Of a stretch of DNA of 64,000 nt, positions 11,008 through 25,408 are shown one piece after another. The notes under the pieces were generated by a model. The model was not told where the DNA came from. It saw only the letters and a program-made list of their open reading frames with translations, and made no database searches. The stretch comes from Spirochaetota bacterium (GTDB lineage: Bacteria > Spirochaetota > UBA4802 > JAFGDQ01). Positions within the stretch are counted from its first letter, which is position 1. The number at the start of each line of letters is the position of its first letter. The position numbers and the translations under genes were made by a program. The DNA lies in the NCBI GenBank assembly GCA_016934735.1, contig JAFGSG010000025.1:16371-80370 (forward strand), in the 5' to 3' direction.

Positions 11008-12156
11008 TTATACCTTACCGAGAATACTTTTCCCAATTAAAACTTTTTCCACCTCTTTTGTACCTTCAAAAATTTCAAGTACCTTTGCATCCCTCCAATA
11101 ATGCTCAACATTGTACTCCTGCAGAATCCCGTACCCCCCATGAAGCTGTATCGCCTCATCCGCGACCTTAACAGCGATTTCGCATGTATACCACTTTGCC
11201 ATTGCTATAAGGGCGTGGTCGACTTCACCATGGTCTACTTTCTGAGCTGCTCTGTACAGAAGGCTTCTTCCTGCCTCTATAAGAGTAGCCATTTCCGCAA
11301 TTTTTGCCTGTACAATCTGGAGTCTGCCTAAAGGCCCTCCGAATGCCTTTCGTTTCTTTACATGATTTACTGCTTTTTCAAATGCACCCTGGGCTGTACC
11401 GACTGCAAGTGCACCGCCACCATCAAGGCGGGCCCGGTTAAAAAAATCCATTAACTGATAAAATCCTTTTCCTTCTTTTCCAACAAGATTTTCCTTTGGT
11501 ACATGTACATCTTTAAGAACAACCTCTCCGGTATCGGAACATCTGATAGATAGTTTACCATGCAGTTTATTTGCTTCATAACCCGGCCTGTCTGTTTCAA
11601 CAATGATTGTACTTAACCTGTCATGTTTCTTTTTGTTTTGGGGATCTGTTACGCAAAGAACTACAAGGAAATCCGCGATATTTGCGTTGCTGATAAACAT
11701 TTTATTTCCTGATATTACATACTCATCTCCGTTTTTAACGGCTGTGGTTGTAATAGCTGCTACATCGCTCCCGGCATCAGGTTCTGTGGATGCCATGCCT
11801 GCCCTCCATTTTCCGGCACACACCGGAGGCAGGTATTTCTGTTTCTGCTCCTCTGTTCCGAAAAGTTTAATAAGTTGAGTTCCAAAATAAGCCGCAACCA
11901 TAGTCTGGGCAATCCCTGTATCTACCCTTGCAAATTCCTCTATTACAAGACATTGCTCAAAATGTCCAAGCCCTGCCCCACCGTATTTTTCTTCAATAAA
12001 CATACCAAGAAATCCGAGTTCACCGGCTTTTTTCCATATATTATCGTCAAACTTCTCATTAGCATCCAACTCTCTTGCAATGTCCGTGAATTCTTTCTCC
12101 GCAAACTCCCTTGCTGCCTGTTTAATATCTCTTTGTTCAGCAGTAAGTTCAAGCAT
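11008..12156 (-). CDS. Acyl-CoA dehydrogenase (butyryl/short-medium chain type)
   Basis: Full-length ACAD fold: FAD-binding segments and C-terminal EIFEGT...QLHGGYG motifs; 382 aa. Confidence 0.9.
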   Translation of the reverse strand: MLELTAEQRDIKQAAREFAEKEFTDIARELDANEKFDDNIWKKAGELGFLGMFIEEKYGGAGLGHFEQCLVIEEFARVDTGIAQTMVAAYFGTQLIKLFGTEEQKQKYLPPVCAGKWRAGMASTEPDAGSDVAAITTTAVKNGDEYVISGNKMFISNANIADFLVVLCVTDPQNKKKHDRLSTIIVETDRPGYEANKLHGKLSIRCSDTGEVVLKDVHVPKENLVGKEGKGFYQLMDFFNRARLDGGGALAVGTAQGAFEKAVNHVKKRKAFGGPLGRLQIVQAKIAEMATLIEAGRSLLYRAAQKVDHGEVDHALIAMAKWYTCEIAVKVADEAIQLHGGYGILQEYNVEHYWRDAKVLEIFEGTKEVEKVLIGKSILGKV

Positions 12157-12168
12157 GTGATCCCCCTA

Positions 12169-13722
12169 CTAATGTAGATTTTTAAAATGATCCCTGATAC
12201 TTCTTTTCAGTATCTTCCCCTGAGGACTCTTTGGAAGTTCCTTCCAGAAGTCCACAGATTTAGGTTTTTTAAATCCTGCCAATTTTTTTCCGCAAAAATC
12301 AATTATTTCTTTTTCTGTTACCTGAGTGCCGTCCATGAGGACAATAACAGCCTTTACAATTTCTCCCCAATGTTCATCCGGCAATCCTATAACCGATGCT
12401 TCTGAAACAGCAGGATGGCTGTAAAGTACCTCCTCGATCTCACGGGGATAAATGTTCACTCCACCGGAAATTATAAGATCATCTTTTCTTTCCAGGATAT
12501 ACAGATATCCATCTTCATCAAGCCTGCCGAGGTCCCCGGTATGAAGCCATCCGTTTCTAAGCTTCCTCGCTGACTCTTCTGCCATATGCCAGTATCCTAT
12601 CATTATTGCTTCGCTTCTGCAAATAATTTCACCTACCTCGCCTACAGGCAAGTCATTATCGTTTTCATCAACAATCCTGATTTCATAGTTAATTACCGCT
12701 TTTCCGGAAGAAGCGAGTCTTTTAAGACTCTTTTCAGAACCATCAAGGATGTGATCTTCACTTTTAAGCACCGTGGTAACCGGGCCACTCTCAGTCTGGC
12801 CATACATTTGTGCAAAACCGTATGGAAAGATTGCCAGTGCCTTCTTTAAAAGTTCGACGGGCATGGATGATCCCGCGTATAGAATCAGCCGTAAACTGCT
12901 TAAATCATATTTGCTTACATCCGGAACCTGAATAAGACTGTGAATCATTGTAGGCACAAACTGGCATCTTGTTATTTTTTCCCTTGAAATATAATCAAGA
13001 ATTTCTGCCGGATTGAATCCGCCTTCCTTCTTAATGTGAATTGTATTCGGCATGAACGAATGGCGCACTATATTATCTTCGCAAGCAACATGATACATGG
13101 GAAAAGTTATTAAAACACTGTCGTCATAATCTACCTTGAGTTCTATAACTGAAGCAACTGCGTCAGAGATCAAATGTCTGTGTGTCCTCATCGCACCTTT
13201 GGGCCTTCCAGTAGTGCCTCCAGTGAAAATTATGCTCATCACATCATCCTCAAGTACTTTAATATCAGGTTCTCTGTTCAGACCGTCTTTAATAAGAAGT
13301 TCGTAATCATCAAGAAAAGAGAGGCCTGGTTTCTGAAGACATATATATTTCTCAACTGATTTTAGCTCATCCTTCAAATTTTTTATATTTTCAAAAAAAT
13401 CATAATCTACAATAAGGTATTTCGGTTCAGAGTAATCTATAAGGTCCTTCAGCTCAAACTGTTTAAGATGATTATTGTATGGGCAGAATACAGCTCCAAT
13501 TTTTGTACATACAAAATATATTTCTATAAATTGATAACAGTTGTGAACAAGAAGTCCGATGCGGTCGCCTTTATTCAATCCAATTTTTAATAATGCATCC
13601 GCAAGGCGATTAACTCTTTCATTCAATGACTTAAAAGTCATTTTTATACCATCGGAGATAAGTGCCATTTTATAGGGAAATTTCTTTGCATTTCGAAATA
13701 TCATATCTCCGACTGTCATCAA
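12169..13722 (-). CDS. AMP-dependent acyl-CoA synthetase/ligase (fatty-acid--CoA ligase family)
   Basis: AMP-binding motif IFTGGTTGRPKGAMRTH, YGQTE, C-terminal GWLHTGDLGRLDEDGYLYILERKDD and PQGKILKR. Confidence 0.85.
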   Translation of the reverse strand: MMTVGDMIFRNAKKFPYKMALISDGIKMTFKSLNERVNRLADALLKIGLNKGDRIGLLVHNCYQFIEIYFVCTKIGAVFCPYNNHLKQFELKDLIDYSEPKYLIVDYDFFENIKNLKDELKSVEKYICLQKPGLSFLDDYELLIKDGLNREPDIKVLEDDVMSIIFTGGTTGRPKGAMRTHRHLISDAVASVIELKVDYDDSVLITFPMYHVACEDNIVRHSFMPNTIHIKKEGGFNPAEILDYISREKITRCQFVPTMIHSLIQVPDVSKYDLSSLRLILYAGSSMPVELLKKALAIFPYGFAQMYGQTESGPVTTVLKSEDHILDGSEKSLKRLASSGKAVINYEIRIVDENDNDLPVGEVGEIICRSEAIMIGYWHMAEESARKLRNGWLHTGDLGRLDEDGYLYILERKDDLIISGGVNIYPREIEEVLYSHPAVSEASVIGLPDEHWGEIVKAVIVLMDGTQVTEKEIIDFCGKKLAGFKKPKSVDFWKELPKSPQGKILKRSIRDHFKNLH

Positions 13723-13767
13723 TTGTTCCTCTTCATAAAATAATTTATATCCCTGTATAAGAAAGTA

Positions 13768-15513
13768 TTAATTTGAATTGAACGAGATAACATCTGATGG
13801 ACAGGTTGATGCGCAAAGGCCGCAGCCAACACATATATCCTCTTTTATATGGGCAATTCTTATTTCTGTCGATAAATTAGGGCCGAATACAGCTATCTGA
13901 CGCTCCTGATTAGCAAGCTCAATAGCACCGTGCGGACACGAGCTTTGGCAGGAGCCGCACCCCGAACAGCGTTCCTCATTAACATGCGGCAGCACCCTTT
14001 CTTCTTCTTTATCAAGCATCATCTCGCCGAGCGCTCCAAGTATTTCCCGCGGCTCCCAGCGGCCGGCTCTAGGATGCCTTATAAAGCCCACATGATACCG
14101 CTTTCTTCCCCATTTTGTGGGCGCCCAGCGAAGCTGCGGTTCAGACCTGTAAACGGAAAGAAATTCTTTATCTTTAATAAGAGCTATATAATCATCAAAC
14201 CTGATAATTTTTTCTGCGTTTAAAGCAAGCTTAAGTTTAACTCCTCCCATAATTTTCACTGATGTACCGTCACATTCAATAGATTCTCCTTCTTCAAGAT
14301 GAATAAATATTATACCTTCCTGGCGAGCTTTTTCATAGATTAGCTCCTCGTACGAAGGTGTAATCAGATTTTTTGTAAGAAAATATACTGTTTTGCCGGA
14401 TTTTTTCATGTTACGCGCTGTATCTATGAATTTCGAGGATATATATTCATAGAACATTCTGTTCATTATATTTTCCGTACCAAGATAAAAAAGACATGAC
14501 GCAAAATTTCCCACAGGAATTACGATCTCAGTTTCCTGCTCTTTGTAGAATAAATCATGATTTGATACTGCTTCCGCAGGAAACTCCGTTCCCTTTAAGG
14601 CGAGCATGCCTGCGCCGAAACCTGTAAGTATACTATCCTTAATATTCATGGGCTCAAGCGCTCCGCCTGAGACATAAACACCTTCCGCGTCCGTAGTTAA
14701 CGGTTCGTTCTCATTAACGAATCCGTATTTGTTTAAAGTAAAACCGAAAAGCCTGCTTAACTCTGCAAGTCCAGGATTCGGCCTTAGCGCCGTGGCAAGA
14801 ACTACGTAATTAAACCGTTCCTGCTTAAGTTTGCCGTCCGTGAAATAGCGCATTGTTACGCCTGTGTCATCTTCTTCAAAATACCGCGAATTGGTGCGTA
14901 TAAAATGCACTCCGGCATTGCGGTACATATCTTCCAGAAAAAATTCCTGCCCGAAAAGCCTGAAGTCGTTGTAGAACACCGAGATATCCGGCTTGGCCCT
15001 TTGAAGCGTCCATTTGATCTCGCGCAGCGTGTAGCTGCAACACACGGATGAACATAGGGGATATTCCTTTGAACGCGATCCGACGCATAGCACAAAAGCG
15101 ATTTTATTAAAGTCAGCTGGCATTTCTTCGTTGCGTTGGTCTATGATCGCATCATAGTCAAGGCTCGCGAGAAGTCTCCTGCCCCTGTATTCTGCCGGGT
15201 CATAAGGAATGAGTCCTGTTGCAATTACAACCCTGTCCGCTTTAAGTGTTTTCCTGTTGTTAAGAGTAACTGTGAAATAATTTTCTTTCCTGGTTACTGC
15301 GGAAATTGTGCTGTCTTTAATAACCTGAAGAAGAGGATTATCTCTTATTTCATCGAAAAATGTTTTAAATCCTATTCTGCAATTGGCTATTCGCGCCATA
15401 AGGCCGCCCGGTTCGGAAGCGGATTCAATAATTATAACAGTATTTCCTTCTTTCAATACTACCTTTGCTGCAGATATGCCGCTTATGCCGCCGCCGATTA
15501 TCAATATATTCAT
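13768..15513 (-). CDS. HdrA-like FAD-dependent oxidoreductase with C-terminal 2x[4Fe-4S] ferredoxin domain; lacks N-terminal Cys domain
   Basis: N-terminal GGGISGISAA FAD fold; HdrA signature LCVGSRSKEYPLCSSVCCSY; C-terminal CSGCGSCQSSCP and CVGCGLCASTCP. Confidence 0.7.
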   Translation of the reverse strand: MNILIIGGGISGISAAKVVLKEGNTVIIIESASEPGGLMARIANCRIGFKTFFDEIRDNPLLQVIKDSTISAVTRKENYFTVTLNNRKTLKADRVVIATGLIPYDPAEYRGRRLLASLDYDAIIDQRNEEMPADFNKIAFVLCVGSRSKEYPLCSSVCCSYTLREIKWTLQRAKPDISVFYNDFRLFGQEFFLEDMYRNAGVHFIRTNSRYFEEDDTGVTMRYFTDGKLKQERFNYVVLATALRPNPGLAELSRLFGFTLNKYGFVNENEPLTTDAEGVYVSGGALEPMNIKDSILTGFGAGMLALKGTEFPAEAVSNHDLFYKEQETEIVIPVGNFASCLFYLGTENIMNRMFYEYISSKFIDTARNMKKSGKTVYFLTKNLITPSYEELIYEKARQEGIIFIHLEEGESIECDGTSVKIMGGVKLKLALNAEKIIRFDDYIALIKDKEFLSVYRSEPQLRWAPTKWGRKRYHVGFIRHPRAGRWEPREILGALGEMMLDKEEERVLPHVNEERCSGCGSCQSSCPHGAIELANQERQIAVFGPNLSTEIRIAHIKEDICVGCGLCASTCPSDVISFNSN

Positions 15514-16199
15514 AAAAATTTCTTTTCTCCCATGACATACAATAGAAGATCAGTAAGATAAATGACCTTTCTTTTTTTGGAAAACATCTTCATTGCCATA
15601 TGACACATGGGGCAGAACACTACGATAATACCTTTCGATTGCTCGAGAAGAAGCTTGGAAAGTTTTTCCGTGACCATTTTGCTTGCAAACAGCCGGCTGG
15701 CTCCGCAGCATTTATCCCTCACCTTTTCACCATCGATCTCTCCGCTGAAAAATGTGATGATCTCTTCCATTATATATTTATTTTTTATCGCGGTTTCTTC
15801 AGGCCTTAGGAGTACACATCCGTAATATGGAGTAAAAAGCATCCCTTTTAAATCATGCTTAACTTTTAGCGAAGCCAGAAGTTCCTTATCGAAAAGCTCA
15901 AGTGGATGCAGAACAGTAAAATTTGTTTTGAAATTAAAATCTTTATTTGCGTCTTTCAGGTTTTTATAACATGCCGGGCATGGCGCAATAATTTCACAGG
16001 GTCCGTCTTCAATTTTTCTTATATTTTCCCTGGATAAATTAGTAAGCTCTTTGCCTCCGTATTCAAGGGCTCCACAGCAATTCCAGTCAGGTATTTCTAA
16101 AAGATTATGGCCCAACAGGTTAAATATTTTTCGTACATCCCTATCCAGGCTGGAAGCAGAGCCTTTCAGTGAGCAGCCGGGGTAATAACTGTAATCCAT
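15510..16199 (-). CDS. HdrB-like subunit with CCG (cysteine-rich) domains
   Basis: CCG motifs DWNCCGALEY and CPACY, plus a C-terminal CCG-like segment. Start set to the internal Met at 16199, which has RBS AAGAGGA 6 nt upstream; the ORF-track start at 16244 would overlap the hdrC-like gene. Confidence 0.7.
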   Translation of the reverse strand: MDYSYYPGCSLKGSASSLDRDVRKIFNLLGHNLLEIPDWNCCGALEYGGKELTNLSRENIRKIEDGPCEIIAPCPACYKNLKDANKDFNFKTNFTVLHPLELFDKELLASLKVKHDLKGMLFTPYYGCVLLRPEETAIKNKYIMEEIITFFSGEIDGEKVRDKCCGASRLFASKMVTEKLSKLLLEQSKGIIVVFCPMCHMAMKMFSKKRKVIYLTDLLLYVMGEKKFL

Positions 16200-16200
16200 T

Positions 16201-16674
16201 TTATATCCTCTTAACCTTATGCGGCACATGTATGCTGCGTACAATATTTATTACGTATTCCATCATCCGGAACATATGCCTGGCCCATCCATCTTTGAGC
16301 ACAAACAATGACGCTCTTAAGAACACATAGGGCTCGTACATCCTTCCCCAAATGTTGATCGATTCAATTATGGCATGCTCAAAGACTGAGCCTGTGCTGA
16401 GATTCTCGCGCAAGCCGCGCACAATGTCGGGAATGCGTATCTGCCACGGGCACGCGCTTGTGCAGCGATAGCAGTTTGTGCAGAATCGCACAAGCGGATC
16501 ATCCTTGTCCACGTTCAGCCCGAGAAAGAGGTTCATAAGCAGTTCCTGCGGATTCGCGTTTATTTCAAGGTCATTCACAGTGCATACTGACGCGCAGATC
16601 CTACACCCAAGGCAGACCGATAAATCTTCCTTTTTGTGTCCGGCAAGTTCAATTATATAATCAGTCTGCTGCAT
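16201..16674 (-). CDS. HdrC-like 2x[4Fe-4S] ferredoxin subunit
   Basis: CLGCRICASVCTV and CTNCYRCTSACP dicluster motifs; 157 aa; directly upstream of and abutting the hdrB-like gene. Confidence 0.7.
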   Translation of the reverse strand: MQQTDYIIELAGHKKEDLSVCLGCRICASVCTVNDLEINANPQELLMNLFLGLNVDKDDPLVRFCTNCYRCTSACPWQIRIPDIVRGLRENLSTGSVFEHAIIESINIWGRMYEPYVFLRASLFVLKDGWARHMFRMMEYVINIVRSIHVPHKVKRI

Positions 16675-18089: not shown

Positions 18090-18181
18090 TATAATATTTC
18101 GAATTCAGCTTTATTGTTTCCCGGACATCACCCCGCCAGTCCGTTCCCGCTATGGAAGAAGAGGCTGGGGAATGAGGTCTT

Positions 18182-19855
18182 TTATACAGTCATTAAAAAC
18201 CCGTTTATTTCATCATCTATAATGCTGTCTATATATCCCTTTAGTCCTATTGCAGAAGAAGGACATGTGGCATTGCACAGTCCGCATCCCTGGCATGCTG
18301 CTTCTTCCACGTGCACGACCCTTGTTTCTTCGTCATATTTTATGGCATTGGAAAAACACGCGTGCTCACACATCCTGCATCCGCTGCATCTCCTGGGGTT
18401 TACATACGATATGAACGGGTCCAGATATGCCCATCCTAAATTCAAAAATCCAAAAAGTTTTAAAGCGGCTGATCTGCCGTGATTGATCGATTCTTCAGTA
18501 TCCTTGGGGCCGGAACATGCTCCTGCTATCAAAATTCCCTTTACCGCCGTGTCAAACGGCCTGAGTTTTATATGCGCTTCAAGAAAAAATTTGTCCTTAT
18601 CGAGAGTGATCTTGAGTAATGTAGCAAGGTCTCTGCTGTCCACAGGGTTCGACATTCCGATTGACAGAACCGCCAGATCGAACTCCCTCTCAAATGGTTC
18701 GCTTAAAAGAGTATCTTCTCCTCTGATAATAATAGCGTTCTCTCCTGATGTTATCTCCGCTATATTTGACCTCGTGAAAAGAGCGCCCTTTGCCTGTGTA
18801 TCCTCGTAATATTCCTCTCCTCCTTTTGGATGAGATCTCATATCGATATAAAACGATTCCACATACGAATCTTTAAACTTATCTTTAACAGCGTTCGCGA
18901 CCCGCAGACTATTAATACAGCAAATCCTTGAACAGTAAGCTTTTCCTATCTGTTCATCCCTTGACCCGACGCAATGAAGTATTGCCACTCTCGGTTTTTC
19001 AGGAAGATTAAGGCTTTCAAACTTATTCTCAAAATCTACTGTTGTAATTATCCTTTCATCTTTTCCGTAATTCAATTCTGGTTTTAATCGCGCGTCAAAG
19101 AGAGAAAAACCTATCGAAACGATAACTCCGCCTATTATTATTTTTTTTTCTCCTTGCGGACCTGCAAGGACTGCCTCATAATTACCGAAAAATCCTTCAA
19201 ATGATTTCAGAACAGTTGATGTATAGATCTCCACATTATCCCTGCTTTTAAGCTCACCTACCATTGCTTCGATAATATCTGACCCACTTTTCAGGGAAGG
19301 CCAGACGTTCTTAAGCTTTCCGACCTGCCCGCCGAGAAAAGCTTCCTTCTCAGCAACATATACCTGCATTCCCATGTTTGAAAGGAAAAGCGCGGCACTA
19401 AGGCCGGATACCCCGCCTCCTATTATAAGAGCGGATTTCGTCACATCCACACGCTTCTCTTCCAGCGGAACCTGATGACATGATCCGTATATTCCTGCTG
19501 TTATTAGTCTTTTTGCTTTTTCCGAATTCTTTTCGAGGTCATCGCCCACCCAGGAACAATGTTCCCTTATGCTCACCCTGCGCAGATAGAAAGGATTCAG
19601 GTTTGACTTTTTGAGCAGGTCTTTAAAAAGATCGCCGTGAAGCGAAGGAGTGCACGAAGCTATAACAACGCGGTCAAGCCCGTATTTCTCGATGCTGTCC
19701 TTTATCATGTCCTGGCCTGGCTCGGAGCATACGAACGGATAGTCCTCGGAAACAACTACGTTGGGGAACGACTTAAAGAAATCGCCCAGCCTTTTTACGT
19801 TTACCGTATGCTTAATGTTGTGTCCGCAATGGCAGACGAATACGCCTATTTTCAT
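18182..19855 (-). CDS. hdrA: Heterodisulfide reductase subunit A (HdrA) homolog
   Basis: N-terminal GVFVCHCGHNI cluster domain, FAD fold IIGGGVSGLSAA, HdrA signature LHCVGSRDEQIGKAYCSRICC, C-terminal CSGCRMCEHAC and CQGCGLCNATCP. Confidence 0.8.
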   Translation of the reverse strand: MKIGVFVCHCGHNIKHTVNVKRLGDFFKSFPNVVVSEDYPFVCSEPGQDMIKDSIEKYGLDRVVIASCTPSLHGDLFKDLLKKSNLNPFYLRRVSIREHCSWVGDDLEKNSEKAKRLITAGIYGSCHQVPLEEKRVDVTKSALIIGGGVSGLSAALFLSNMGMQVYVAEKEAFLGGQVGKLKNVWPSLKSGSDIIEAMVGELKSRDNVEIYTSTVLKSFEGFFGNYEAVLAGPQGEKKIIIGGVIVSIGFSLFDARLKPELNYGKDERIITTVDFENKFESLNLPEKPRVAILHCVGSRDEQIGKAYCSRICCINSLRVANAVKDKFKDSYVESFYIDMRSHPKGGEEYYEDTQAKGALFTRSNIAEITSGENAIIIRGEDTLLSEPFEREFDLAVLSIGMSNPVDSRDLATLLKITLDKDKFFLEAHIKLRPFDTAVKGILIAGACSGPKDTEESINHGRSAALKLFGFLNLGWAYLDPFISYVNPRRCSGCRMCEHACFSNAIKYDEETRVVHVEEAACQGCGLCNATCPSSAIGLKGYIDSIIDDEINGFLMTV

Positions 19856-19876
19856 TATTGAATAGCCTTTTGTTGT

Positions 19877-22588
19877 TTACTGATTTATATACTCCATACA
19901 TCTCGCTGCAGCTTCTCCTCCGGATGCAACTGTATCCGGAACATCCTTGGGCCCGGTGCCCATTCCGCATGCGAAGATGCCTTCAACGCTGGTCTTCGAC
20001 GGTTCAATAGAGTCTGTCCTGATAAAACCATATTCGTCTTTATCGATCGACATTATACCGCACAGTTCTTCAATTTCTTTGCGCGGCCTTATGCCTGTGG
20101 CGAGTATGACCATGTCCGCTTCTATTTCAAGAAGTTGACCACCAAGCATATCCTCGACTCTTACAAGCAGCCCGTTCTCTGTCTTTGTTACTTCACCGGG
20201 TATGCCCTTAATGTAGAAAATGCCGTTTTCCTGAGCGCTCTTGTAAAATTCATCGTAGTTCTTACCGTATGCCCTGACATCAATATATGAAACATATATT
20301 TCCGCATCTTTGATCCTGTCTCTTATAATGCTTGCATGTTTTGCGGTATACATACAGCATACCCTTGAGCAGTATCTTGCCCCGCTTTGCCTTTCCCTTG
20401 ACCCTACGCATTGTATAAAAAAAAATCGTTTGGGTATTTTACCGTTCAGCAGGATGTCTCCGCCTGTTGGACCTGTCACAGAAGACAGCCTTTCAAATTC
20501 CATGCCAGTCATAACACCGTTGTAAACGCCGTATCCGTATTCCTTTTTCTCCGAAGGGTCATAGAGATCAAAACCCGGGGCGAGCACAATTCCATCAAAA
20601 TCCAAATCCACAATCTCATCTTTTATGCTATAATCGATTGCTTTTACTTCACAGCGTCTCTCGCACTCTCCGCACTCTATGCAACCTTCTACTTTACCGG
20701 CAATACAGCGTGAAGCCTCAGCCTCTGCTTCTTCTGCTTTATAACCGGACGAGACTTCCCTGAAATCGAAAATTCTTTCTCCCGAAGGCTCTTCTGTCAT
20801 AGCAATGCGTTCTTCCCTGCCATAGCGTTCAGCAGCAAATCTGATCTCCTCGTTATTTAAACGACCGGGCTGTGCGTTTTTTATTTGCGGGATCACAGAT
20901 TCTTTTCTAAGATATTTGCCTATCGATAAAGCAGCTCTTTTGCCTGCTGCAATTGCCTCAATAACATACGCAGGTCCGGTAACGGAATCGCCTCCTGCGA
21001 ATATTCCTTCAATTTCCGTAGTACATGCGGCAGAATCCGCTTTTATATAATTATTATTGATTAACGAAGAAGCTGTTCCGTTTAAAAAAGATAAGTCCAT
21101 AGCCTGTCCAAGCGCCGTTATTACAGTATCTACCGGCATAACGAATTCCGAACTGTTTATCTTCACTGGTTTGCGTCTGCCGTCAGCATCCGGATCACCA
21201 GGCTCCATGCGAGCGCATTCCATTGCTGAGAGCTTTCCGTTCTCAGCTAGAAAACGCACAGGCACGGCAAGAAATTCGATCTCTATGCCCTCGTTCTCTA
21301 GCGCTTCGATCTCTTCCCGCGCCGCAGGCATCTCATCGCGTGTTCTTCGGTAGACCAGTTTTACGCTCCCGGCACCGAGTCTCTTCGCTGTGCGCGCGCA
21401 GTCAACGGCAGTATTGCCTCCGCCTATAACAGCGCAAGCGCCCCCGACAGTCGGAGCTGCTCCGCTGTTGAAATCTCTAAGAAATTTAATGCCCTCCATC
21501 ACCCCCCGGGAATCTTCACCCGGAACGCCAAGAGGCACTCCCTTCTGTGCACCCACAGCAATGAATACGGCATTGTAATCTTCTTTAAGCTCGTCGAAAG
21601 CAATATCTTTTCCTGCTGCAGTGCTGCATCTTATATCCACACCAAGCTTTTTTATGTAATCTATCTCTTTTTTCAGTTCCACTTTAGGGAGCCTGTACTC
21701 CGGTATTCCGTATCTAAGCATTCCGCCCGCTTCAGGGAGATCTTCAAAAACAGTGACGTCATAACCCTGCAAAGCACAATCGTGCGCGCACGATAATCCG
21801 GCAGGCCCTGCGCCGATCACGGCGACCTTTTCGCCTGTCTTTTGTATCTGCGGAGGCACAAGCGAATCTGTATCAAACGAATCTGCCGCGAAACGTTTGA
21901 TATCACGGATCGCAAGCGGCGAGTCGATCTGTCCCCTGCAGCACACTTCCTCGCATGGTGCATAGCACACTCTGCCGCAGACCGATGGAAATGGATTTGT
22001 CTCTCTTATGAGCATATAAGCATCTTTATGCCTTCCTTCGCTTATATGTTTTAAATATCCGGGTACATTTGTTCCTACAGGACATACATGTTTGCAAGGC
22101 ATAGGGCATAGCTGCGATTCACGTTTATCTATCACAGCTTTATTCGGGATCGCCTGAGGGAACGGTATATAGATTGCTTTTCTTGTTCCTGTTTCCATAT
22201 TGAATTCACTTTTCATGACAACAGGGCATCCGGCAAAGCAAGTACCGCATGCAGTGCATTTTTCAATATTTACATAGCGCGATCTTTTAACAATTGACGC
22301 TGTGAAACCTGCGCCGTTTTTCTTTACAGCAAGCAGCTTTGCCCATGACAAAAGATCAATCTTTTGATTGAGTGCAACCTCTACCATCTTGGGAGAAAGC
22401 GTGCATGTAGAGCAGTCGAGAGTGGGAAAAGTCTTATCCAGCTGTATCATCCTTCCGCCTATTGTCGCGGTTTGTTCAAGCATGGTCACGTGAATGCCGC
22501 AGCCCGCAAGCTCAAGAGCAGCAGTTATGCCGCCTATCCCTCCGCCCACAACAAGCACTTCTTTTTCTTTTGCAGTAACTTCATTCAT
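19877..22588 (-). CDS. Large HdrA paralog with inserted GltD-like NAD(P)H-binding module (HdrL-type)
   Basis: N-terminal VVGGGIGGITAA FAD fold; ferredoxin insert CTACGTCFAGCP...CPMPCKHVCP; second Rossmann VAVIGAGPAGLSCAHD...GIPEYRLPK as in glutamate synthase small subunit; HdrA signature FIQCVGSRERQSGARYCSRVCC; 903 aa. Confidence 0.75.
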   Translation of the reverse strand: MNEVTAKEKEVLVVGGGIGGITAALELAGCGIHVTMLEQTATIGGRMIQLDKTFPTLDCSTCTLSPKMVEVALNQKIDLLSWAKLLAVKKNGAGFTASIVKRSRYVNIEKCTACGTCFAGCPVVMKSEFNMETGTRKAIYIPFPQAIPNKAVIDKRESQLCPMPCKHVCPVGTNVPGYLKHISEGRHKDAYMLIRETNPFPSVCGRVCYAPCEEVCCRGQIDSPLAIRDIKRFAADSFDTDSLVPPQIQKTGEKVAVIGAGPAGLSCAHDCALQGYDVTVFEDLPEAGGMLRYGIPEYRLPKVELKKEIDYIKKLGVDIRCSTAAGKDIAFDELKEDYNAVFIAVGAQKGVPLGVPGEDSRGVMEGIKFLRDFNSGAAPTVGGACAVIGGGNTAVDCARTAKRLGAGSVKLVYRRTRDEMPAAREEIEALENEGIEIEFLAVPVRFLAENGKLSAMECARMEPGDPDADGRRKPVKINSSEFVMPVDTVITALGQAMDLSFLNGTASSLINNNYIKADSAACTTEIEGIFAGGDSVTGPAYVIEAIAAGKRAALSIGKYLRKESVIPQIKNAQPGRLNNEEIRFAAERYGREERIAMTEEPSGERIFDFREVSSGYKAEEAEAEASRCIAGKVEGCIECGECERRCEVKAIDYSIKDEIVDLDFDGIVLAPGFDLYDPSEKKEYGYGVYNGVMTGMEFERLSSVTGPTGGDILLNGKIPKRFFFIQCVGSRERQSGARYCSRVCCMYTAKHASIIRDRIKDAEIYVSYIDVRAYGKNYDEFYKSAQENGIFYIKGIPGEVTKTENGLLVRVEDMLGGQLLEIEADMVILATGIRPRKEIEELCGIMSIDKDEYGFIRTDSIEPSKTSVEGIFACGMGTGPKDVPDTVASGGEAAARCMEYINQ

Positions 22589-22600
22589 TTTTATTCGCGA

Positions 22601-23545
22601 TCAGCCTTTCATGATTACCTTTAAATTGTCCCTTAACTTATTTGCGTCAGCAACAATACCATAGTGGGCATATTGAAAAATAGGTGCCTGTGGGTCCTTG
22701 TTAACTGCTATTATACAATCCGAATCCTTCATTCCGGCAATATGCTGGAATGCTCCGCTTATACCCATCGCGAAATATACTTTCGGCTTAACCGTCTTAC
22801 CGGATGTCCCCACCTGTCTTGGCTTCGGAAGCCACATTTTATCAATAACAGGTCTTGATCCAGAAATAACCGCTTTCAATAAGGCGGCCAGTTCTTCATA
22901 GCCGGCAATCTCATCTTGATTTCCGATACCTCTTCCGACTGAGAGCAGAAATTCTGCTTTAGTAATGTCTATCTCTGTTGAATCTTCTTCTATGTATTCT
23001 ATGAAAGTTCTATTCTTACTTATCTGTATTTCTTCCAGTGTTTCAGAAGCAGGTAATGATGCTTTTTCAACCGCATTATCCTTAAAACTGCCGCTTCTTA
23101 CTGTAATAATAAAAGGCCCTGTATCTGTCAGCTTGAACTGGCCGAATATCTTATCTGAATAATAGCTCTTAAGAAAAATCCCTTTTTCTTTATCATAACC
23201 ACTTACATCTGTAATAAGCGGAAGTTTAAAATGTCCCGATGCATAAGAAGCAAGCTCAGTACCAGAAGAAGAAAGCGTAAAGATGATTACATCCGGATTT
23301 CCCTTTAGATTTATGACTTTTTCAAGAGCTGTGATCATATTTAAAGGATTAAGAAATGAAGATTCTTCTATTCTTACTTTTATAATATTATTAACAAACT
23401 TTTCATTTATTTTATAATCACCTTCAGGTATTAGAAGAGTAATATTTCTCTGTAATAGATTAGAAAAACCGATAGAATCAAGATTCCTGTCCTCAAATAA
23501 GCCGCGTCTGATTTCACTGACAACTAAAGCATAGCTCATTGGCAC
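22601..23545 (-). CDS. etfA: Electron transfer flavoprotein alpha subunit
   Basis: C-terminal FAD-binding signature YFAMGISGAFQHIAGMKDSDCIIAVNKDPQAPIF. Confidence 0.85.
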   Translation of the reverse strand: MPMSYALVVSEIRRGLFEDRNLDSIGFSNLLQRNITLLIPEGDYKINEKFVNNIIKVRIEESSFLNPLNMITALEKVINLKGNPDVIIFTLSSSGTELASYASGHFKLPLITDVSGYDKEKGIFLKSYYSDKIFGQFKLTDTGPFIITVRSGSFKDNAVEKASLPASETLEEIQISKNRTFIEYIEEDSTEIDITKAEFLLSVGRGIGNQDEIAGYEELAALLKAVISGSRPVIDKMWLPKPRQVGTSGKTVKPKVYFAMGISGAFQHIAGMKDSDCIIAVNKDPQAPIFQYAHYGIVADANKLRDNLKVIMKG

Positions 23546-24315
23546 ACCCCATTTTCTTTTAAAATTCCCAGAACATCCTTACAGATATTAGAAAGCTCGC
23601 CGGTTAGCATGGTTGCACCGGCTTTTTTCTCAGGATAGACCCATTTAATGATTTCTATCATATTTGAAAAATTCTCCTGATAATTGTTCATCGGAAAGAT
23701 TTTACGGTCAACCTTAGAGGCCTTTCGCACACCCATTATAGAAACATATCGCGGCTCATTTATGCCGCTTTGGATAGAGAGAACGCAGGGAAGTGTCAGC
23801 TTTATGCGCTCCCTGAGACCTCCTTCCAGTTCCCTGCGCGCAGTTACCTGCCCGTTTTCGAATGAGTCAATTCCGATTATCATCGAAGCGTATGGAAGAC
23901 CCAGCCTTGCAGCGAGTATCCCTCCTACAGAAGCAAACTGATCATCTTCAGACTGCACACCTGTAAAAATAGCATCAAATGGAGTGCTTTCCTTCTTTAA
24001 AAAATCAGATATTACCGATGCGCGCTCATTAGGGTCATGAATTGTTTCACTGGTTTCTATCAGAAATCCGTCTTTTGCGCCCATTGCGATAGCGCGCCTT
24101 AAAACATCATCTGATTCAGCATCTCCGATTGAGACTGCAGTCACTGCCCCTCCGGTCTTCTCAACAATCCTGACCGCTTCTTCGATTGCATAATTATCCC
24201 AGTCATTCATCTTGAACGGCACCTTAGCCAAATCTACCCCCTGTCCATCATTTACGATTCGCAGCTCTTCTTCCTGGGCTGCCGCTACTCTTTTTGCAAA
24301 AACTAATATATTCAT
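23536..24315 (-). CDS. etfB: Electron transfer flavoprotein beta subunit
   Basis: EtfB fold starting MNILVFAKRV, NDWDNYAIEEAVR and the DLAVLSIGMS-like region; overlaps the etfA start. Confidence 0.85.
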   Translation of the reverse strand: MNILVFAKRVAAAQEEELRIVNDGQGVDLAKVPFKMNDWDNYAIEEAVRIVEKTGGAVTAVSIGDAESDDVLRRAIAMGAKDGFLIETSETIHDPNERASVISDFLKKESTPFDAIFTGVQSEDDQFASVGGILAARLGLPYASMIIGIDSFENGQVTARRELEGGLRERIKLTLPCVLSIQSGINEPRYVSIMGVRKASKVDRKIFPMNNYQENFSNMIEIIKWVYPEKKAGATMLTGELSNICKDVLGILKENGVCQ

Positions 24316-24316
24316 T

Positions 24317-25408
24317 TCAAATAACCTCCATTAATATCTCAGAAATATCTTTTACCGGCAGTTCTTTTTCTTTTGCCGGATCTTCGAGCGTCATTAAACA
24401 AAAAGGACAACTAGTGGCTATCAGGTCAGCCCCATTTGCAATTGCTTCCTGTACGCGTATATCGCTGTTCCTTTGACCTGAATTTTCTACTTCATAAAAC
24501 ATCCTCCCTCCGCCACTCTCGCAGCAAAGAGAATTTTCTCTTGTTCTTGAGAACTCGAGAAGCTTAAGATTATTTATAAAATTAAGGATAATCCTTGGAG
24601 CATCAAAAATACCATTTTGTTTTCCAAGAAAACATGGGTCATGATATATAACATTTTTGTCATATACTCCTTCTAATTTTAGTCTGCCGCCTTTAATCAA
24701 ATCTGAAACAACTTCAGTATAATGAAATATTTTGATACCATGATAGCCATATTCTTTTTTAAGCGCATTCATGCAATGCGGAGAGAGTGCGATAATTTCC
24801 TTGACTCCGTATTCTTTAAAAGCCGCGATATTCTCTTCCTGTAGTTCCTCAAAAAGACCAGTCTCTCCAATTCTTCTTATCTCATTACCGCAGCATGCTT
24901 CCTCTTCACCCAGGATGCCAAACTCAAGCCCGCTTTTTTGTAATATTTTTGCGATGTTCGCTGAGATAACCATACATCTTGGATCATATGCCTGAATACA
25001 ACAAACAAAAAGAAGTCTTTTATCTTTTGTTTCGGAAATATGTGGAATCCTGAAATCAACTGATTCTGTCCATGAAGCTCTTTTATTTCGTGAACGGCCC
25101 CATGGATTTCTCTGAACAAAAGTATTTTCAAGTGCTTTTTGAATTGTTAAAGGTATTTTACCGTTTTCAACAAGTAACGAACGCATTTGAATAATAACTT
25201 CAGACGGTTTTACATCTCTCGGACATCGAATAGTGCATGCACCGCACGATGTGCAGAACCATGGAATTCCCTCTGCAATTACGCTTTGGAATTGTTTTTT
25301 TCGTATCAGCACCCTTATGTTAAAAGGAGTTTTACCTGACTCAGGACAGCTTCCTGTGCATTTCCCGCACTGTATGCAGGTTAATACTCCGGCAAGATTA
25401 TCCCCCAT
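24317..25408 (-). CDS. Soluble Fe-S oxidoreductase, 2x[4Fe-4S] plus two CCG domains (HdrD/GlcF/GlpC-like)
   Basis: CIQCGKCTGSCP and CTSCGACTIRCP, then CCG motifs CCGNEIRR and CPFC. No hydrophobic membrane segment is visible; RBS GAGGA before the ATG. Confidence 0.75.
   Translation of the reverse strand: MGDNLAGVLTCIQCGKCTGSCPESGKTPFNIRVLIRKKQFQSVIAEGIPWFCTSCGACTIRCPRDVKPSEVIIQMRSLLVENGKIPLTIQKALENTFVQRNPWGRSRNKRASWTESVDFRIPHISETKDKRLLFVCCIQAYDPRCMVISANIAKILQKSGLEFGILGEEEACCGNEIRRIGETGLFEELQEENIAAFKEYGVKEIIALSPHCMNALKKEYGYHGIKIFHYTEVVSDLIKGGRLKLEGVYDKNVIYHDPCFLGKQNGIFDAPRIILNFINNLKLLEFSRTRENSLCCESGGGRMFYEVENSGQRNSDIRVQEAIANGADLIATSCPFCLMTLEDPAKEKELPVKDISEILMEVI

What the first reader, a model, noticed from the sequence alone, without database searches (positions are those of the whole stretch)
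11008..25408. 12-gene same-strand operon fusing beta-oxidation enzymes, EtfAB and an Hdr/Mvh-type module: candidate electron-bifurcating/confurcating supercomplex
Twelve genes are packed with 0-45 bp gaps or overlaps on the minus strand, in transcription order: soluble HdrD/GlcF-like CCG protein, etfB, etfA, HdrL-type large HdrA with GltD-like NAD(P)H module, hdrA, mvhD, a 2x[4Fe-4S] protein, hdrC-like, hdrB-like, a second HdrA-like flavoprotein, acyl-CoA ligase, acyl-CoA dehydrogenase. All signature motifs were read directly from the translations. Known bifurcating systems cover parts of this set: Bcd-EtfAB for NADH/ferredoxin/crotonyl-CoA, and HdrABC-MvhD/FlxABCD for NADH/ferredoxin/disulfide. 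A single operon that wires an acyl-CoA dehydrogenase and ligase through EtfAB into three HdrA-class flavoproteins plus HdrBC, MvhD and a non-membrane HdrD-like protein is not a textbook arrangement. It implies that electrons from acyl-CoA oxidation (E0' about -10 mV) are pushed to NAD(P)H/ferredoxin via a thiol/disulfide or CCG-domain centre rather than to quinone, which is what syntrophic fatty-acid or amino-acid oxidizers need. The nfnAB pair at 46.5-48.8 kb adds another bifurcating enzyme nearby.
Basis: partly seen in the sequence, partly recalled or inferred. Interest (0 to 1): 0.75.

Follow-up and report, generated by a model that had tools for sequence, protein, structure and literature searches.

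The report
Transferred Etf–heterodisulfide-reductase redox gene island
A 15-kb block of twelve genes pairs a fatty-acyl-CoA dehydrogenase and its electron-transfer flavoprotein with a set of heterodisulfide-reductase-type flavoproteins; it is a conserved system of Syntrophorhabdus-like syntrophic bacteria that has been inserted whole into a spirochaete genome, and it probably lets cells connect acyl-CoA redox chemistry to NAD(P)H and ferredoxin without a membrane quinone.

Summary
The "2x[4Fe-4S] protein" is FdhB-like. The CCG protein is closest to the soluble half of mycobacterial EtfD (ETF:menaquinone oxidoreductase) and has no membrane domain.

The first ten genes keep the same order in about 70 Syntrophorhabdales species genomes, including cultured S. 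aromaticivorans UI. All cofactor cysteines are conserved. The ligase and acyl-CoA dehydrogenase recur nearby but in varying positions.

1. The window comes from a Spirochaetota MAG. Two sister genomes have recC-thy-PQloop-recB with nothing in between, so the block is a roughly 15-kb horizontally acquired island.
2. The Etf resembles non-bifurcating ETFs and lacks the CarD-type "RQAIDGDTAQ" stretch.
3. Nine species, including strain UI, lack the NAD(P)H-binding insert of HdrL.

Best reading, which is inferred and not shown: a soluble HdrA-based bifurcating/confurcating complex in which ETF, docked on the EtfD-like protein, is the high-potential partner. A 2026 preprint showed this wiring for class II benzoyl-CoA reductase (BamE-BamD-ETF).

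It is a new variant of known kinds. I found no description in the literature I could search, but the 2015 strain UI genome papers were not available. Interest is moderately high.

The parts
10794..25756 (.). Inserted island of about 14.96 kb, lying between the stop codons of two convergent host genes (thy-like and PQ-loop).
   Evidence: Sister loci L076 and L077 have thy-like and PQ-loop 8-13 bp apart with no Etf/Hdr genes. Island proteins are at most 77% identical to Syntrophorhabdales proteins only. Flank proteins are closest to Spirochaetota.
24317..25408 (-). G01: soluble EtfD/EMO-like iron-sulfur protein (363 aa) with two cubane [4Fe-4S] motifs and two CCG (non-cubane cluster) domains. 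Proposed ETF docking and electron-relay subunit.
   Evidence: Pfam CCG E 5.5e-23. PDB 9ojn_A EtfD E 9e-56, aligned to its soluble region. No TM segment. Positions C11/14/17/21, C52/55/58/62, C136/137/172/173/212 plus H211, and C259/295/296/334/337 are 98-100% conserved in 56 orthologs.
23536..24315 (-). G02: EtfB (259 aa), of the non-bifurcating (AMP-site) type by similarity.
   Evidence: Pfam ETF E 1.2e-34. PDB best hits are 1o94_C at 122 bits, 1efp_B at 101 and 1efv_B at 82, versus 58-67 bits for CarD, LctB, C. difficile and A. fermentans. Motif 'GVQSEDDQFASVG' versus CarD 'GRQAIDGDTAQVG'.
22601..23545 (-). G03: EtfA (314 aa) with the FAD-binding ETF_alpha domain and no N-terminal ferredoxin domain.
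   Evidence: Pfam ETF_alpha E 2.5e-30. PDB hits to both ETF types, so not discriminating.
19877..22588 (-). G04: HdrL-type protein (903 aa). An HdrA thioredoxin-reductase-like core is split by a GltD/NfnB-like module (about residues 162-663) carrying 2x[4Fe-4S], FAD and an NAD(P)H site.
   Evidence: NCBIfam PRK12771 531 bits (above cutoff) at residues 162-663. HdrA2 model matched in two stretches flanking it. Pfam Fer4_20 and Pyr_redox_2. Cysteines conserved. In 9 species a 434-aa HdrA core without the insert takes this position.
18182..19855 (-). G05: HdrA (557 aa) with an N-terminal Cys-rich domain, FAD core and C-terminal 2x[4Fe-4S] ferredoxin domain. It lacks the inserted ferredoxin domain.
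   Evidence: NCBIfam HdrA2 E 4.6e-148. C8/C10/C43/C68, C295/308/312/313 and 8 C-terminal Cys conserved in 68 orthologs.
17652..18089 (-). G06: MvhD-type [2Fe-2S] adaptor (145 aa).
   Evidence: Pfam FlpD E 1.8e-41. NCBIfam VhuD E 1.4e-28. 5 Cys 100% conserved.
16661..17677 (-). G07: FdhB-like iron-sulfur protein (338 aa). It may bind flavin, but this was not tested.
   Evidence: PDB 9t1s_M E 1.4e-23, 7bkb_E E 5.9e-19, 8rvu_E E 5.9e-16, matched in two stretches. 15 Cys conserved. No Pfam FrhB_FdhB hit at E<1e-3.
16201..16674 (-). G08: HdrC-like 2x[4Fe-4S] protein (157 aa).
   Evidence: NCBIfam CoB_CoM_SS_C E 3.9e-8 and GlpC. Two CX2CX2CX3C motifs conserved.
15510..16244 (-). G09: HdrB-like protein (244 aa; the likely true start is at Met16) with two CCG domains and the full 10-Cys set.
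   Evidence: Pfam CCG E 7e-17, two stretches. C24/56/57/89/92 and C143/179/180/211/214 are 96-100% conserved.
13768..15513 (-). G10: third HdrA-class flavoprotein (581 aa), made of a FAD core with the HdrA-type 4-Cys site, an unassigned alpha/beta domain (about 339-445) and a C-terminal 2x[4Fe-4S] domain.
   Evidence: PDB 5odc_A E 7e-30 and 6tjr_A. AF2 model (pLDDT 74) best fold match 6tjr_A with TMt 0.81, then methanogen HdrA. The family is small, with 334 clusters.
12169..13722 (-). G11: AMP-forming acyl-CoA ligase (517 aa).
   Evidence: Pfam AMP-binding E 8e-78. NCBIfam PRK06187 504 bits, above cutoff. Orthologs at 63-77% lie upstream of G01 in Syntrophorhabdales loci.
11008..12156 (-). G12: short/medium-chain-type acyl-CoA dehydrogenase (382 aa). 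Substrate unknown.
   Evidence: Three ACAD Pfam domains. Best NCBIfam hits, all below cutoff, are acryloyl-CoA reductase AcrC at 373 bits, glutaryl-CoA DH at 287 and cyclohexane-1-carbonyl-CoA DH at 285. Orthologs at 73-89% in donor-like loci.
25425..25452 (-). Promoter-like site (TTAATA-16-TAAAAT) 17 nt upstream of the G01 start. Weak evidence only.
   Evidence: The total number of promoter-like sites in the region is near chance (54 versus 42 +/- 7).
10933..10965 (.). Palindromic hairpin between the convergent ACAD and PQ-loop genes. Possible bidirectional terminator.
   Evidence: 13-nt arms, 92% complementary, 7-nt loop.

Best explanation
The block is a self-contained, horizontally transferable redox module that originated in Syntrophorhabdales.

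Shown:
- Ten genes are inherited as a unit in about 70 species with all cofactor ligands intact: soluble EtfD-like FeS protein, EtfB, EtfA, HdrL, HdrA, MvhD, FdhB-like, HdrC-like, HdrB-like and a third HdrA-like protein.
- An acyl-CoA ligase and an acyl-CoA dehydrogenase recur beside them.
- In this window all twelve sit as a roughly 15-kb insertion in a Spirochaetota recC-recB locus.

Inferred mechanism:
1. The acyl-CoA dehydrogenase exchanges electrons with an ordinary, non-bifurcating ETF.
2. ETF docks on the soluble EtfD-like protein G01, as ETF does on EMO/EtfD and on BamD.
3. The non-cubane and cubane clusters of G01 connect ETF to an HdrA-type flavin in an HdrL/HdrA/MvhD core.
4. At that flavin the high-potential ETF branch (about 0 mV) is coupled to a low-potential ferredoxin branch through the C-terminal ferredoxin domains.
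5. The mid-potential partner is NAD(P)H, entering at the NfnB/GltD-like insert of HdrL. It may also, or instead, be an unknown carrier entering through the FdhB-like/HdrCB/HdrA-like module.

The net reaction would be 2 NAD(P)H + 2 Fd(ox) + enoyl-CoA <-> 2 NAD(P)+ + 2 Fd(red) + acyl-CoA. This is the chemistry of Bcd-EtfAB, achieved with HdrA-class flavins, independent of quinone and reversible. The direction would depend on the host: oxidative in syntrophs, and possibly reductive as an electron sink in a fermenting spirochaete.
For: Unit of inheritance:
- Same order of G01-G10 in 74 loci.
- Transfer of all 12 genes en bloc between phyla.

Intact cofactor sites.

ETF link:
- G01 is immediately upstream of etfBA, 1 nt apart.
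- G01 is homologous to the ETF-accepting soluble region of EtfD.
- The EtfD and EMO structural papers show ETF donating to these clusters.
- BCRII shows the chain HdrA-type flavin - HdrD-like BamD - ETF working in vitro and in situ.
- G01's nearest non-orthologous relative (46% identity) sits between two hdrA genes.

Other points:
- The protein is soluble, with no TM segment.
- The Etf is of the non-bifurcating type, so coupling must lie elsewhere.
- HdrL carries a complete NfnB/GltD-like NAD(P)H module.
- FdhB-MvhD-HdrA contacts are known from Fdh-Hdr structures matched by G07.
Against: - There is no biochemical, transcript or protein-interaction evidence for this system.
- Nine species, including S. 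aromaticivorans UI, lack the NAD(P)H insert, so NAD(P)H cannot be the universal partner.
- A full HdrB-type 10-Cys CCG protein (G09) is also present, and in canonical Hdr that is a catalytic disulfide site. A thiol/disulfide substrate may therefore be part of the reaction.
- The ligase and ACAD are absent from many Syntrophorhabdales loci within the 10-kb flanks.
- No ferredoxin gene lies in the island.
- The window shows no hydratase, hydroxyacyl-CoA dehydrogenase or thiolase.
- Assigning EtfB as non-bifurcating rests on similarity and one motif. The published group definitions (Garcia Costas 2017) could not be read.
Confidence: 0.5

Rival explanations
1. Disulfide-linked system. The HdrB/HdrC-like pair (G08/G09) is a true catalytic site for a thiol/disulfide carrier (a DsrC-like protein, a lipoate-type protein or a low-molecular-weight disulfide). 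The complex would then be an NAD(P)H- and/or ETF-dependent disulfide reductase with ferredoxin as co-substrate, like FlxABCD-HdrABC or HdrABC-MvhD. ETF would be just one electron input.
For: G09 keeps all ten HdrB cysteines and G08 all eight HdrC cysteines. MvhD, HdrA, HdrB and HdrC are all present. The module G06-G10 is retained even where the NAD(P)H insert is lost. Secondary sources say the strain UI genome work linked Hdr to syntrophic electron flow.
Against: No candidate disulfide carrier is encoded in the island, yet the island moved between phyla. CCG/non-cubane domains act purely as electron relays in EMO, EtfD and BamD. There are two CCG modules, and the one next to etfBA is EtfD-like.
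Confidence: 0.2
2. BCRII-like 'redox booster'. The stacked flavin modules use ETF as a high-potential sink to generate very low-potential electrons for a difficult reduction carried out by a partner enzyme encoded elsewhere, or by the ACAD acting as a reductase on an unusual CoA ester.
For: The part list parallels BamD (G01), BamE (G04+G05), BamF (G06) and BamOP (EtfBA). The system belongs to an order specialised in aromatic-acid degradation. Neighbours in donor genomes look like TRAP carboxylate transporters and CoA ligases, judged by eye from the sequences and not profile-tested.
Against: There is no BamB/BamC-type tungsten enzyme and no HydBC-type BamGHI in the island or in the conserved flanks. 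The only substrate-level enzymes that travel with the island are a ligase and an ordinary ACAD.
Confidence: 0.12
3. Adjacent but independent operons. This would be a standard ligase/ACAD/EtfAB/Etf-dehydrogenase set placed beside an unrelated Hdr/MvhD NAD(P)H oxidoreductase.
For: There is a gap of at least 92 nt before mvhD and a 45-nt gap before the ligase. The ligase and ACAD change position among genomes.
Against: G01-G10 are never separated in about 70 species, and all twelve genes were transferred together. A soluble EtfD-like protein has no acceptor unless it contacts another redox protein. Its nearest out-group relative is embedded between hdrA genes.
Confidence: 0.08
4. Classical bifurcating Etf. 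The EtfAB itself bifurcates (Bcd-EtfAB/CarCDE type) and the Hdr proteins are accessory.
For: ACAD, EtfBA and ligase together mirror carBCDE. The best EtfA PDB hit is the C. difficile bifurcating EtfA.
Against: EtfB, the subunit that holds the bifurcating FAD, is much closer to non-bifurcating ETFs and lacks the CarD-type stretch. EtfA has no ferredoxin domain.
Confidence: 0.05

Closest known systems
Class II benzoyl-CoA reductase Bam[(BC)2DEFGHI]2 with ETF (BamOP) of Geobacter metallireducens (bioRxiv 10.64898/2026.04.10.717634)
   Same: A soluble HdrD-like protein with non-cubane clusters relays electrons between an HdrA-type bifurcating flavoprotein and a non-bifurcating ETF. An MvhD-type adaptor is present. 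A second flavin module that handles NAD(P)H is coupled in series.
   Different: There is no tungsten BamB/BamC catalytic module and no HydBC-type BamGHI. The NAD(P)H module is NfnB/GltD-like and is inserted into an HdrA. Extra FdhB-like, HdrCB-like and third HdrA-like subunits are present, and etfBA, a ligase and an ACAD are encoded in the same block.
ETF:(methyl)menaquinone oxidoreductase EMO/EtfD (S. aciditrophicus; M. smegmatis, PDB 9OJN)
   Same: G01 aligns with the whole soluble region (two cubane clusters plus two CCG domains, including the conserved His next to a cluster Cys). It is encoded directly beside etfBA.
   Different: G01 lacks the five-helix heme b membrane domain, so it cannot reduce quinone. 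It keeps a CCG Cys where M. smegmatis EtfD has Thr (the site of that protein's linear [3Fe-4S] cluster). Its partners are HdrA-class flavoproteins.
Bcd-EtfAB / CarCDE (bifurcating Etf complexes)
   Same: The proposed net reaction is the same (NADH, ferredoxin and enoyl-CoA). An ACAD-family enzyme plus EtfAB, and a CoA ligase as in the car operon, are present.
   Different: The EtfB is of the non-bifurcating type. The energy-coupling flavin would be HdrA/NfnB-like rather than the Etf beta-FAD.
HdrABC-MvhD complexes, including Fdh-MvhD-HdrABC (PDB 7BKB, 8RVU, 9T1S), and the bacterial HdrL/HdrA-MvhD-FdhB loci of Desulfobacterium autotrophicum (PMC2702500)
   Same: HdrA, HdrB, HdrC and MvhD are all present, along with an FdhB-like subunit next to MvhD. 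The HdrL architecture is HdrA plus a glutamate-synthase-like NAD(P)H part.
   Different: There is no hydrogenase or FdhA catalytic subunit and no known heterodisulfide. Three HdrA-class proteins have complementary domain sets. An ETF branch has been added; in D. autotrophicum etfAB pairs with a membrane HdrF instead.
FlxABCD-HdrABC (Flox-Hdr) NADH dehydrogenase/heterodisulfide reductase
   Same: It is a soluble NAD(P)H-linked Hdr system with an MvhD-like subunit, found in syntrophs and sulfate reducers.
   Different: There is no FlxA-type subunit. S. aromaticivorans has a separate Flox-Hdr/Hdr-Ifo locus (SynarDRAFT_0709-0715).

Membership tests
Bifurcating (group 2) Etf | EtfB binds a second FAD in place of AMP, reflected in closer similarity to Bf-EtfB proteins and a conserved 'G-R-Q-A-I-D-G-D-T-A-Q-V-G'-type stretch. 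| tested here: not met
   122, 101 and 82 bits to W3A1, Paracoccus and human ETF-beta, versus 58-67 bits to CarD, LctB, C. difficile and A. fermentans. The window has 'GVQSEDDQFASVG'. The published motif definitions were not readable; the motif comparison rests on the CarD alignment and my recollection.
Bifurcating (group 2) Etf | NADH-dependent ferredoxin reduction by EtfAB plus its partner dehydrogenase. | not testable with these tools
   Requires biochemistry.
EMO / EtfD (ETF:menaquinone oxidoreductase) | Soluble region with two cubane [4Fe-4S] motifs and two CCG/non-cubane-cluster domains. | tested here: met
   Pfam CCG x2 and Fer4. 9ojn_A E 9e-56 over the soluble region. Ligands 98-100% conserved.
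EMO / EtfD (ETF:menaquinone oxidoreductase) | N-terminal five-helix heme b membrane domain that reduces (methyl)menaquinone. | tested here: not met
   G01 is 363 aa and starts at the first cubane motif. Maximum hydropathy 1.35, with no TM-like segment. No membrane partner gene in the island.
EMO / EtfD (ETF:menaquinone oxidoreductase) | Genomic pairing with etfBA. | tested here: met
   The G01 stop is 1 nt from the etfB start, and this is conserved in the orthologous loci.
HdrABC-MvhD heterodisulfide reductase | HdrA with FAD core, HdrA-type Cys cluster site and ferredoxin domain(s), plus MvhD. | tested here: met
   G05 HdrA2 model E 4.6e-148. G06 FlpD E 1.8e-41. Cysteines conserved.
HdrABC-MvhD heterodisulfide reductase | HdrB with 10-Cys double CCG site and HdrC with two cubane clusters. 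| tested here: met
   G09 and G08. All scores are far below the NCBIfam equivalog cutoffs, so these are 'like' proteins and not orthologs.
HdrABC-MvhD heterodisulfide reductase | A heterodisulfide substrate (CoM-S-S-CoB) and an electron-donating hydrogenase or FDH catalytic subunit. | tested here: not met
   No MvhA/G, FdhA or methanogenesis genes in the island, the conserved flanks or the 64-kb window. The substrate itself is not testable here.
HdrL (D. autotrophicum type) | HdrA-like protein fused with a glutamate-synthase-small-subunit-like NAD(P)H-binding part. | tested here: met
   G04 has PRK12771 (531 bits, above cutoff) at residues 162-663, flanked by HdrA2 model matches. Description of HdrL in PMC2702500. 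Direct sequence comparison with HRM2 HdrL was not done.
Class II benzoyl-CoA reductase (BamB-I) | Tungsten AOR-family BamB with BamC, and HydBC/NuoEF-like BamGHI. | tested here: not met
   None of the 12 proteins has these domains, and none recurs in the flanks of 74 loci.
FlxABCD-HdrABC | FlxA FAD/NAD(P)-binding subunit with FlxBCD upstream of hdrABC. | tested here: not met
   No FlxA-like protein was found. The only shared parts are the MvhD-like and Hdr subunits.

The most novel reading that the evidence does not exclude
This may be a third, previously uncharacterised way of coupling acyl-CoA/enoyl-CoA redox chemistry to ferredoxin. It would be a quinone-independent soluble machine in which an ordinary ETF is plugged, through a membrane-less EtfD-like adaptor, into stacked bifurcation modules: an NfnB-like flavin inserted into one HdrA, plus two more HdrA-class flavins, MvhD, an FdhB-like protein and HdrBC-like proteins. 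It would be compact enough to move between phyla as a 15-kb cassette that confers the trait. If so, hierarchical coupling of bifurcation modules, so far shown only for class II benzoyl-CoA reductase, would be a general design principle.
Probability: 0.3. Interest if true: 0.8.

Novelty: new variant of a known kind. Interest (0 to 1): 0.62.

Why it matters
Re-oxidising the flavin reduced by acyl-CoA dehydrogenases (E0' near 0 mV) is the hardest redox step in syntrophic fatty-acid and aromatic-acid degradation. Two solutions are known: bifurcating Bcd-EtfAB, and membrane EMO with a reverse redox loop.

A soluble HdrA-based ETF oxidoreductase would be a third solution. It would explain how Syntrophorhabdales, which are key degraders of phenol, benzoate and phthalates in digesters, handle ETF electrons. 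It would also extend the newly found BamD-ETF wiring beyond aromatic ring reduction.

The transfer of the intact cassette into a Spirochaetota genome is natural evidence that the twelve genes work as a portable unit. It suggests how fermenters can acquire new redox capabilities. The system is directly testable because S. aromaticivorans UI is in culture.

Tried and rejected
Hypotheses rejected:
- Bifurcating Etf, on EtfB similarity and motif.
- A membrane anchor on the CCG protein, by hydropathy and by the extent of the alignment to EtfD.
- Accidental adjacency, by synteny in 74 loci and en-bloc transfer.
- Native, vertically inherited cluster. Sister genomes lack it, and in a midpoint-rooted NJ tree the island nests inside the Syntrophorhabdales radiation.
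- Assembly chimera. This is unlikely, because it would need two exact junctions at one syntenic site. Island GC3 (0.29-0.43) also lies between the flanks (0.28-0.38) and typical donor values (median about 0.6), which fits residence in the host. However, some Syntrophorhabdales loci are themselves low-GC, so the composition argument alone is weak.

Checks that led nowhere:
- No direct or inverted repeats, integrase or tRNA at the island borders (no such ORFs).
- A 78-aa ORF upstream of G01 and the 105-aa ORF at 10207-10524 have no homologs in any locus.
- The promoter/terminator scan is at chance level.
- The contigs of the two closest RecC relatives end at recC, so they are uninformative.
- AF2 plus Foldseek on G10 only confirmed the HdrA fold and left its middle domain unassigned.

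Literature:
- The Nobu 2015 papers (Environ Microbiol and ISME J) and Garcia Costas 2017 are not in the library.
- Nine full-text searches found no description of this cluster.

Distribution beyond close relatives could not be mapped. The genome scan finds close relatives only, and hit lists saturate with orthologs.

Full report
**Observation**

ORF listing shows twelve consecutive minus-strand ORFs from 25408 down to 11008. Junctions are gaps of 1, 12, 21, 45 and 12 nt or overlaps of 4-44 nt. The exception is a gap of at least 92 nt between hdrA (stop at 18182) and mvhD (start at 18089).

- G01 (24317-25408): two ferredoxin-type motifs plus two CCG domains.
- G02 and G03: EtfB and EtfA.
- G04 (903 aa): an HdrA core interrupted at residues 162-663 by a GltD/NfnB-like module. 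PRK12771 scores 531 bits, above its cutoff. Fer4_20 and Pyr_redox_2 are also present.
- G05: HdrA (HdrA2 model, E 4.6e-148).
- G06: MvhD (FlpD, E 1.8e-41).
- G08 and G09: HdrC-like and HdrB-like.
- G10: HdrA-like with a C-terminal dicluster domain.
- G11: AMP-forming ligase.
- G12: acyl-CoA dehydrogenase.

Two labels need sharpening.

- G07 is not just a dicluster protein. It matches FdhB subunits of the methanogen Fdh-Hdr complexes (9t1s_M E 1.4e-23, 7bkb_E, 8rvu_E).
- G01's best solved relative is M. smegmatis EtfD (9ojn_A, E 9e-56). The alignment covers only EtfD's soluble region. EtfD is the ETF:menaquinone oxidoreductase whose soluble part holds two cubane clusters and two CCG-bound clusters above a five-helix heme domain (PMC13083937).
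- G01 starts at the first cubane motif and has no hydrophobic segment, so it is a membrane-less EtfD/EMO-like module.

**Conservation**

A scan of one genome per GTDB species with HdrA (G05) returned 74 loci at 47-78% identity. All are labelled Syntrophorhabdales, Syntrophorhabdaceae or unclassified 'delta proteobacteria', and they include cultured S. aromaticivorans UI (L054).

- tblastn and ORF clustering show G01-G10 in the same order wherever the contig is long enough.
- The window's cofactor-ligand cysteines are retained in 89-100% of the 35-68 orthologs aligned per protein: G01's 8 cubane and 10 CCG Cys plus His211, G09's 10, G08's 8, MvhD's 5, and the HdrA-type sites in G04, G05 and G10.
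- The ligase and ACAD are recurrent but mobile neighbours. Orthologs (63-77% and 73-89% identity) lie upstream of G01 in loci such as L003, L029, L034, L036, L044 and L052. Many loci instead have other ligases, and proteins that look like TRAP transporter subunits, sigma-54 regulators or a TetR regulator (these neighbour annotations were made by eye).
- In nine species, including strain UI, the HdrL position holds a 434-aa HdrA core without the NAD(P)H insert.

**The island is foreign to this genome**

- The exact G01, RecC and G10 proteins are deposited as 'Spirochaetes bacterium' MAG proteins on an 86,951-bp contig.
- RecC's nearest named relatives (50-61% identity) are Spirochaetota MAGs, and unlabelled hits reach 72%. 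Desulfobacterota reach only about 45%.
- The window also carries a UPF0164 protein, which I recall as a Treponema-associated family, and ordinary housekeeping genes.
- Two sister contigs (L076 with RecC 67%, L077 with RecC 65%) share the order pseudouridine synthase - recC - thy-like - PQ-loop - recB - recD. L077 also shares HflX, M23 peptidase, TPR and UDP-glucose dehydrogenase.
- In these sisters, thy-like and PQ-loop are 8-13 bp apart with nothing between them. The window's Thy-like and PQ-loop proteins are 84% and 77% identical to those of L076.
- Hence 10794-25756 is an insertion of about 15 kb.
- In a neighbour-joining tree of six concatenated proteins, the window branches inside the Syntrophorhabdales radiation. 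Its best identity to them (0.71) equals their own median pairwise identity of 0.72.
- Island GC3 (0.29-0.43) lies between the flanks (0.28-0.38) and typical orthologs (median 0.58-0.68). Some Syntrophorhabdales loci are also low-GC.
- No repeats or mobility genes mark the borders.
- Relative to donor-like loci (ligase-ACAD-G01...G10), the window order (G01...G10-ligase-ACAD) is a circular permutation.

**What kind of Etf**

- EtfB, the subunit that carries the bifurcating FAD in group-2 Etfs, scores 122, 101 and 82 bits against the non-bifurcating ETFs of M. methylotrophus W3A1, Paracoccus and human. Against CarD, LctB, C. difficile and A. fermentans it scores only 58-67 bits.
- In the alignment, CarD reads 'AGRQAIDGDTAQVGS' where the window reads 'TGVQSEDDQFASVGG' and W3A1 reads 'AGVQSSDQAYASTG'.
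- EtfA is not discriminating and has no ferredoxin domain.
- I therefore treat the Etf as a conventional one-FAD/AMP carrier. Confidence is moderate, because the published group definitions could not be consulted.

**How it most likely works (inference)**

Three recent structural studies provide the template.

- EtfD and S. aciditrophicus EMO accept electrons from ETF at their CCG-bound clusters.
- In class II benzoyl-CoA reductase, the HdrA-like BamE bifurcates. High-potential electrons run through the soluble HdrD-like BamD to ETF, with an MvhD-like BamF and a second, NADH/Fd-confurcating flavin module feeding BamE.

The island contains the same logic with different parts. G01 corresponds to BamD and to the EMO soluble half. 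EtfBA corresponds to BamOP. G04 plus G05 are HdrA-class flavoproteins with complementary domain sets: G04 has the core plus the inserted domain, and G05 has the N-terminal domain, the core and the C-terminal ferredoxin domain. G06 is MvhD.

The NfnB/GltD-like insert offers an NAD(P)H site and is itself homologous to a bifurcating flavoprotein. I therefore propose a soluble complex that couples ETF (about 0 mV; +16 mV was measured for BamOP) and ferredoxin to NAD(P)H. The chemistry is that of Bcd-EtfAB, using the standard potentials of -10 mV for crotonyl-CoA/butyryl-CoA and -320 mV for NAD+/NADH (established knowledge).

The closest non-orthologous relative of G01 (46% identity, 381 aa) lies between two hdrA genes with no Etf. 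This supports a physical HdrA-HdrD-like partnership.

Several points are unresolved:
- The role of the always-retained FdhB-like/HdrC/HdrB/HdrA-like module (G07-G10) is unknown.
- The mid-potential partner in species without the NAD(P)H insert is unknown.
- Whether G09's HdrB-type site turns over a disulfide is unknown.
- The physiological direction is unknown.

The window contains no hydratase, hydroxyacyl-CoA dehydrogenase, thiolase, hydrogenase, formate dehydrogenase or membrane EMO. For the spirochaete host, a reductive, electron-sink role (ligase plus enoyl-CoA reductase, as in the car system) is therefore as plausible as oxidation.

**Comparison and novelty**

Every protein belongs to a known family. 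HdrL was defined in D. autotrophicum, where etfAB pairs with a membrane HdrF. Flox-Hdr/Hdr-Ifo of strain UI is a different locus. The system fails the defining tests for four known kinds:
- Bifurcating Etf, on the EtfB type.
- EMO/EtfD, because there is no membrane or heme domain.
- Class II benzoyl-CoA reductase, because there is no BamBC or BamGHI.
- Canonical Hdr, because there is no hydrogenase or FDH catalytic subunit and no known heterodisulfide.

It works most like the BamDEF-ETF part of class II benzoyl-CoA reductase. Nine full-text searches found no description of this cluster. However, the two 2015 papers by Nobu and colleagues most likely to mention it are not held, so prior genomic mention cannot be excluded. 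I rate it a new variant of known kinds, with a documented inter-phylum transfer as an added finding.

**Verdict**

The co-conserved Etf/Hdr system is real. The bifurcating-Etf idea and the inferred host physiology are not supported, and the mechanism is plausible but untested.
- Confidence that this is one inherited functional unit is about 0.9.
- Confidence that it is a horizontally acquired island is about 0.85.
- Confidence in the specific HdrA-based ETF/NAD(P)H/ferredoxin coupling is about 0.5.

Noticed in passing
window 10794-25756; sister loci L076 13560-14685 and L077 13382-14472: The whole 12-gene block is an insertion of about 15 kb between convergent thy-like and PQ-loop genes of a Spirochaetota recC-recB-recD locus. 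Two sister genomes have these genes 8-13 bp apart. No integrase, tRNA or border repeats were found.
   Followed up: yes
L054 8266-9570 (S. aromaticivorans UI), and L030, L039, L041, L043, L047, L050, L058, L074: In nine Syntrophorhabdales species the HdrL position holds a 434-aa HdrA core that lacks the GltD/NfnB-like NAD(P)H insert. The NAD(P)H module is therefore an optional add-on to the system.
   Followed up: partly
window 11008-13722 versus L003, L029, L034, L036, L044, L052: Gene order is circularly permuted. Donor-like genomes have ligase-ACAD(-TetR)-G01...G10, while the window has G01...G10-ligase-ACAD. This would fit transfer through a circular intermediate, but that is speculative.
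   Followed up: no
JGI metagenome 3300075153 (contigs of P0242 and P0122; no DNA available): The closest G10 homolog (77%) and the closest RecC homolog (72%) come from the same metagenome. There G10 is followed by purC, ssb, ssb and purF rather than ligase/ACAD. A related spirochaete may carry the island at another site.
   Followed up: partly
window 13768-15513, protein residues about 339-445: G10 has a confidently modelled alpha/beta domain without cysteines between its HdrA-like core and its ferredoxin domain. It has no family or fold assignment.
   Followed up: partly
window 25757-26611: A thymidylate-synthase-like gene (weak Pfam hit; archaeal-type TIGR03283 at 101 bits, below cutoff) sits between recC and recB in this lineage and its sisters.
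   Followed up: no
window 46565-48848: The NfnB/GltD-like (474 aa) and NfnA/PyrK-like (272 aa) pair passes NCBIfam cutoffs (TIGR01316, PRK06222). It lies among housekeeping genes and is part of the host genome, not the island.
   Followed up: partly
window 25455-25691 (-) and 10207-10524 (+): A 78-aa ORF lies in the 348-bp leader upstream of G01, and a 105-aa ORF lies beside the PQ-loop gene. Neither has a homolog in any fetched locus or a Pfam/NCBIfam match (the 78-aa ORF was not scanned against Pfam).
   Followed up: partly
L080 10-3096: An unrelated high-GC metagenome contig carries HdrA core - soluble HdrD-like (46% to G01) - HdrA with N-terminal CHCG domain, with overlapping genes and no Etf. 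This suggests a wider family of soluble HdrA/HdrD-like complexes.
   Followed up: partly
L076 18604-19617: In one sister genome a transposase (rve) is inserted between recB and recD. This recBCD neighbourhood seems prone to insertions.
   Followed up: no
window 55250-56461: A UPF0164-family protein is present. I recall this family as Treponema-associated, which would fit the Spirochaetota assignment of the contig.
   Followed up: no
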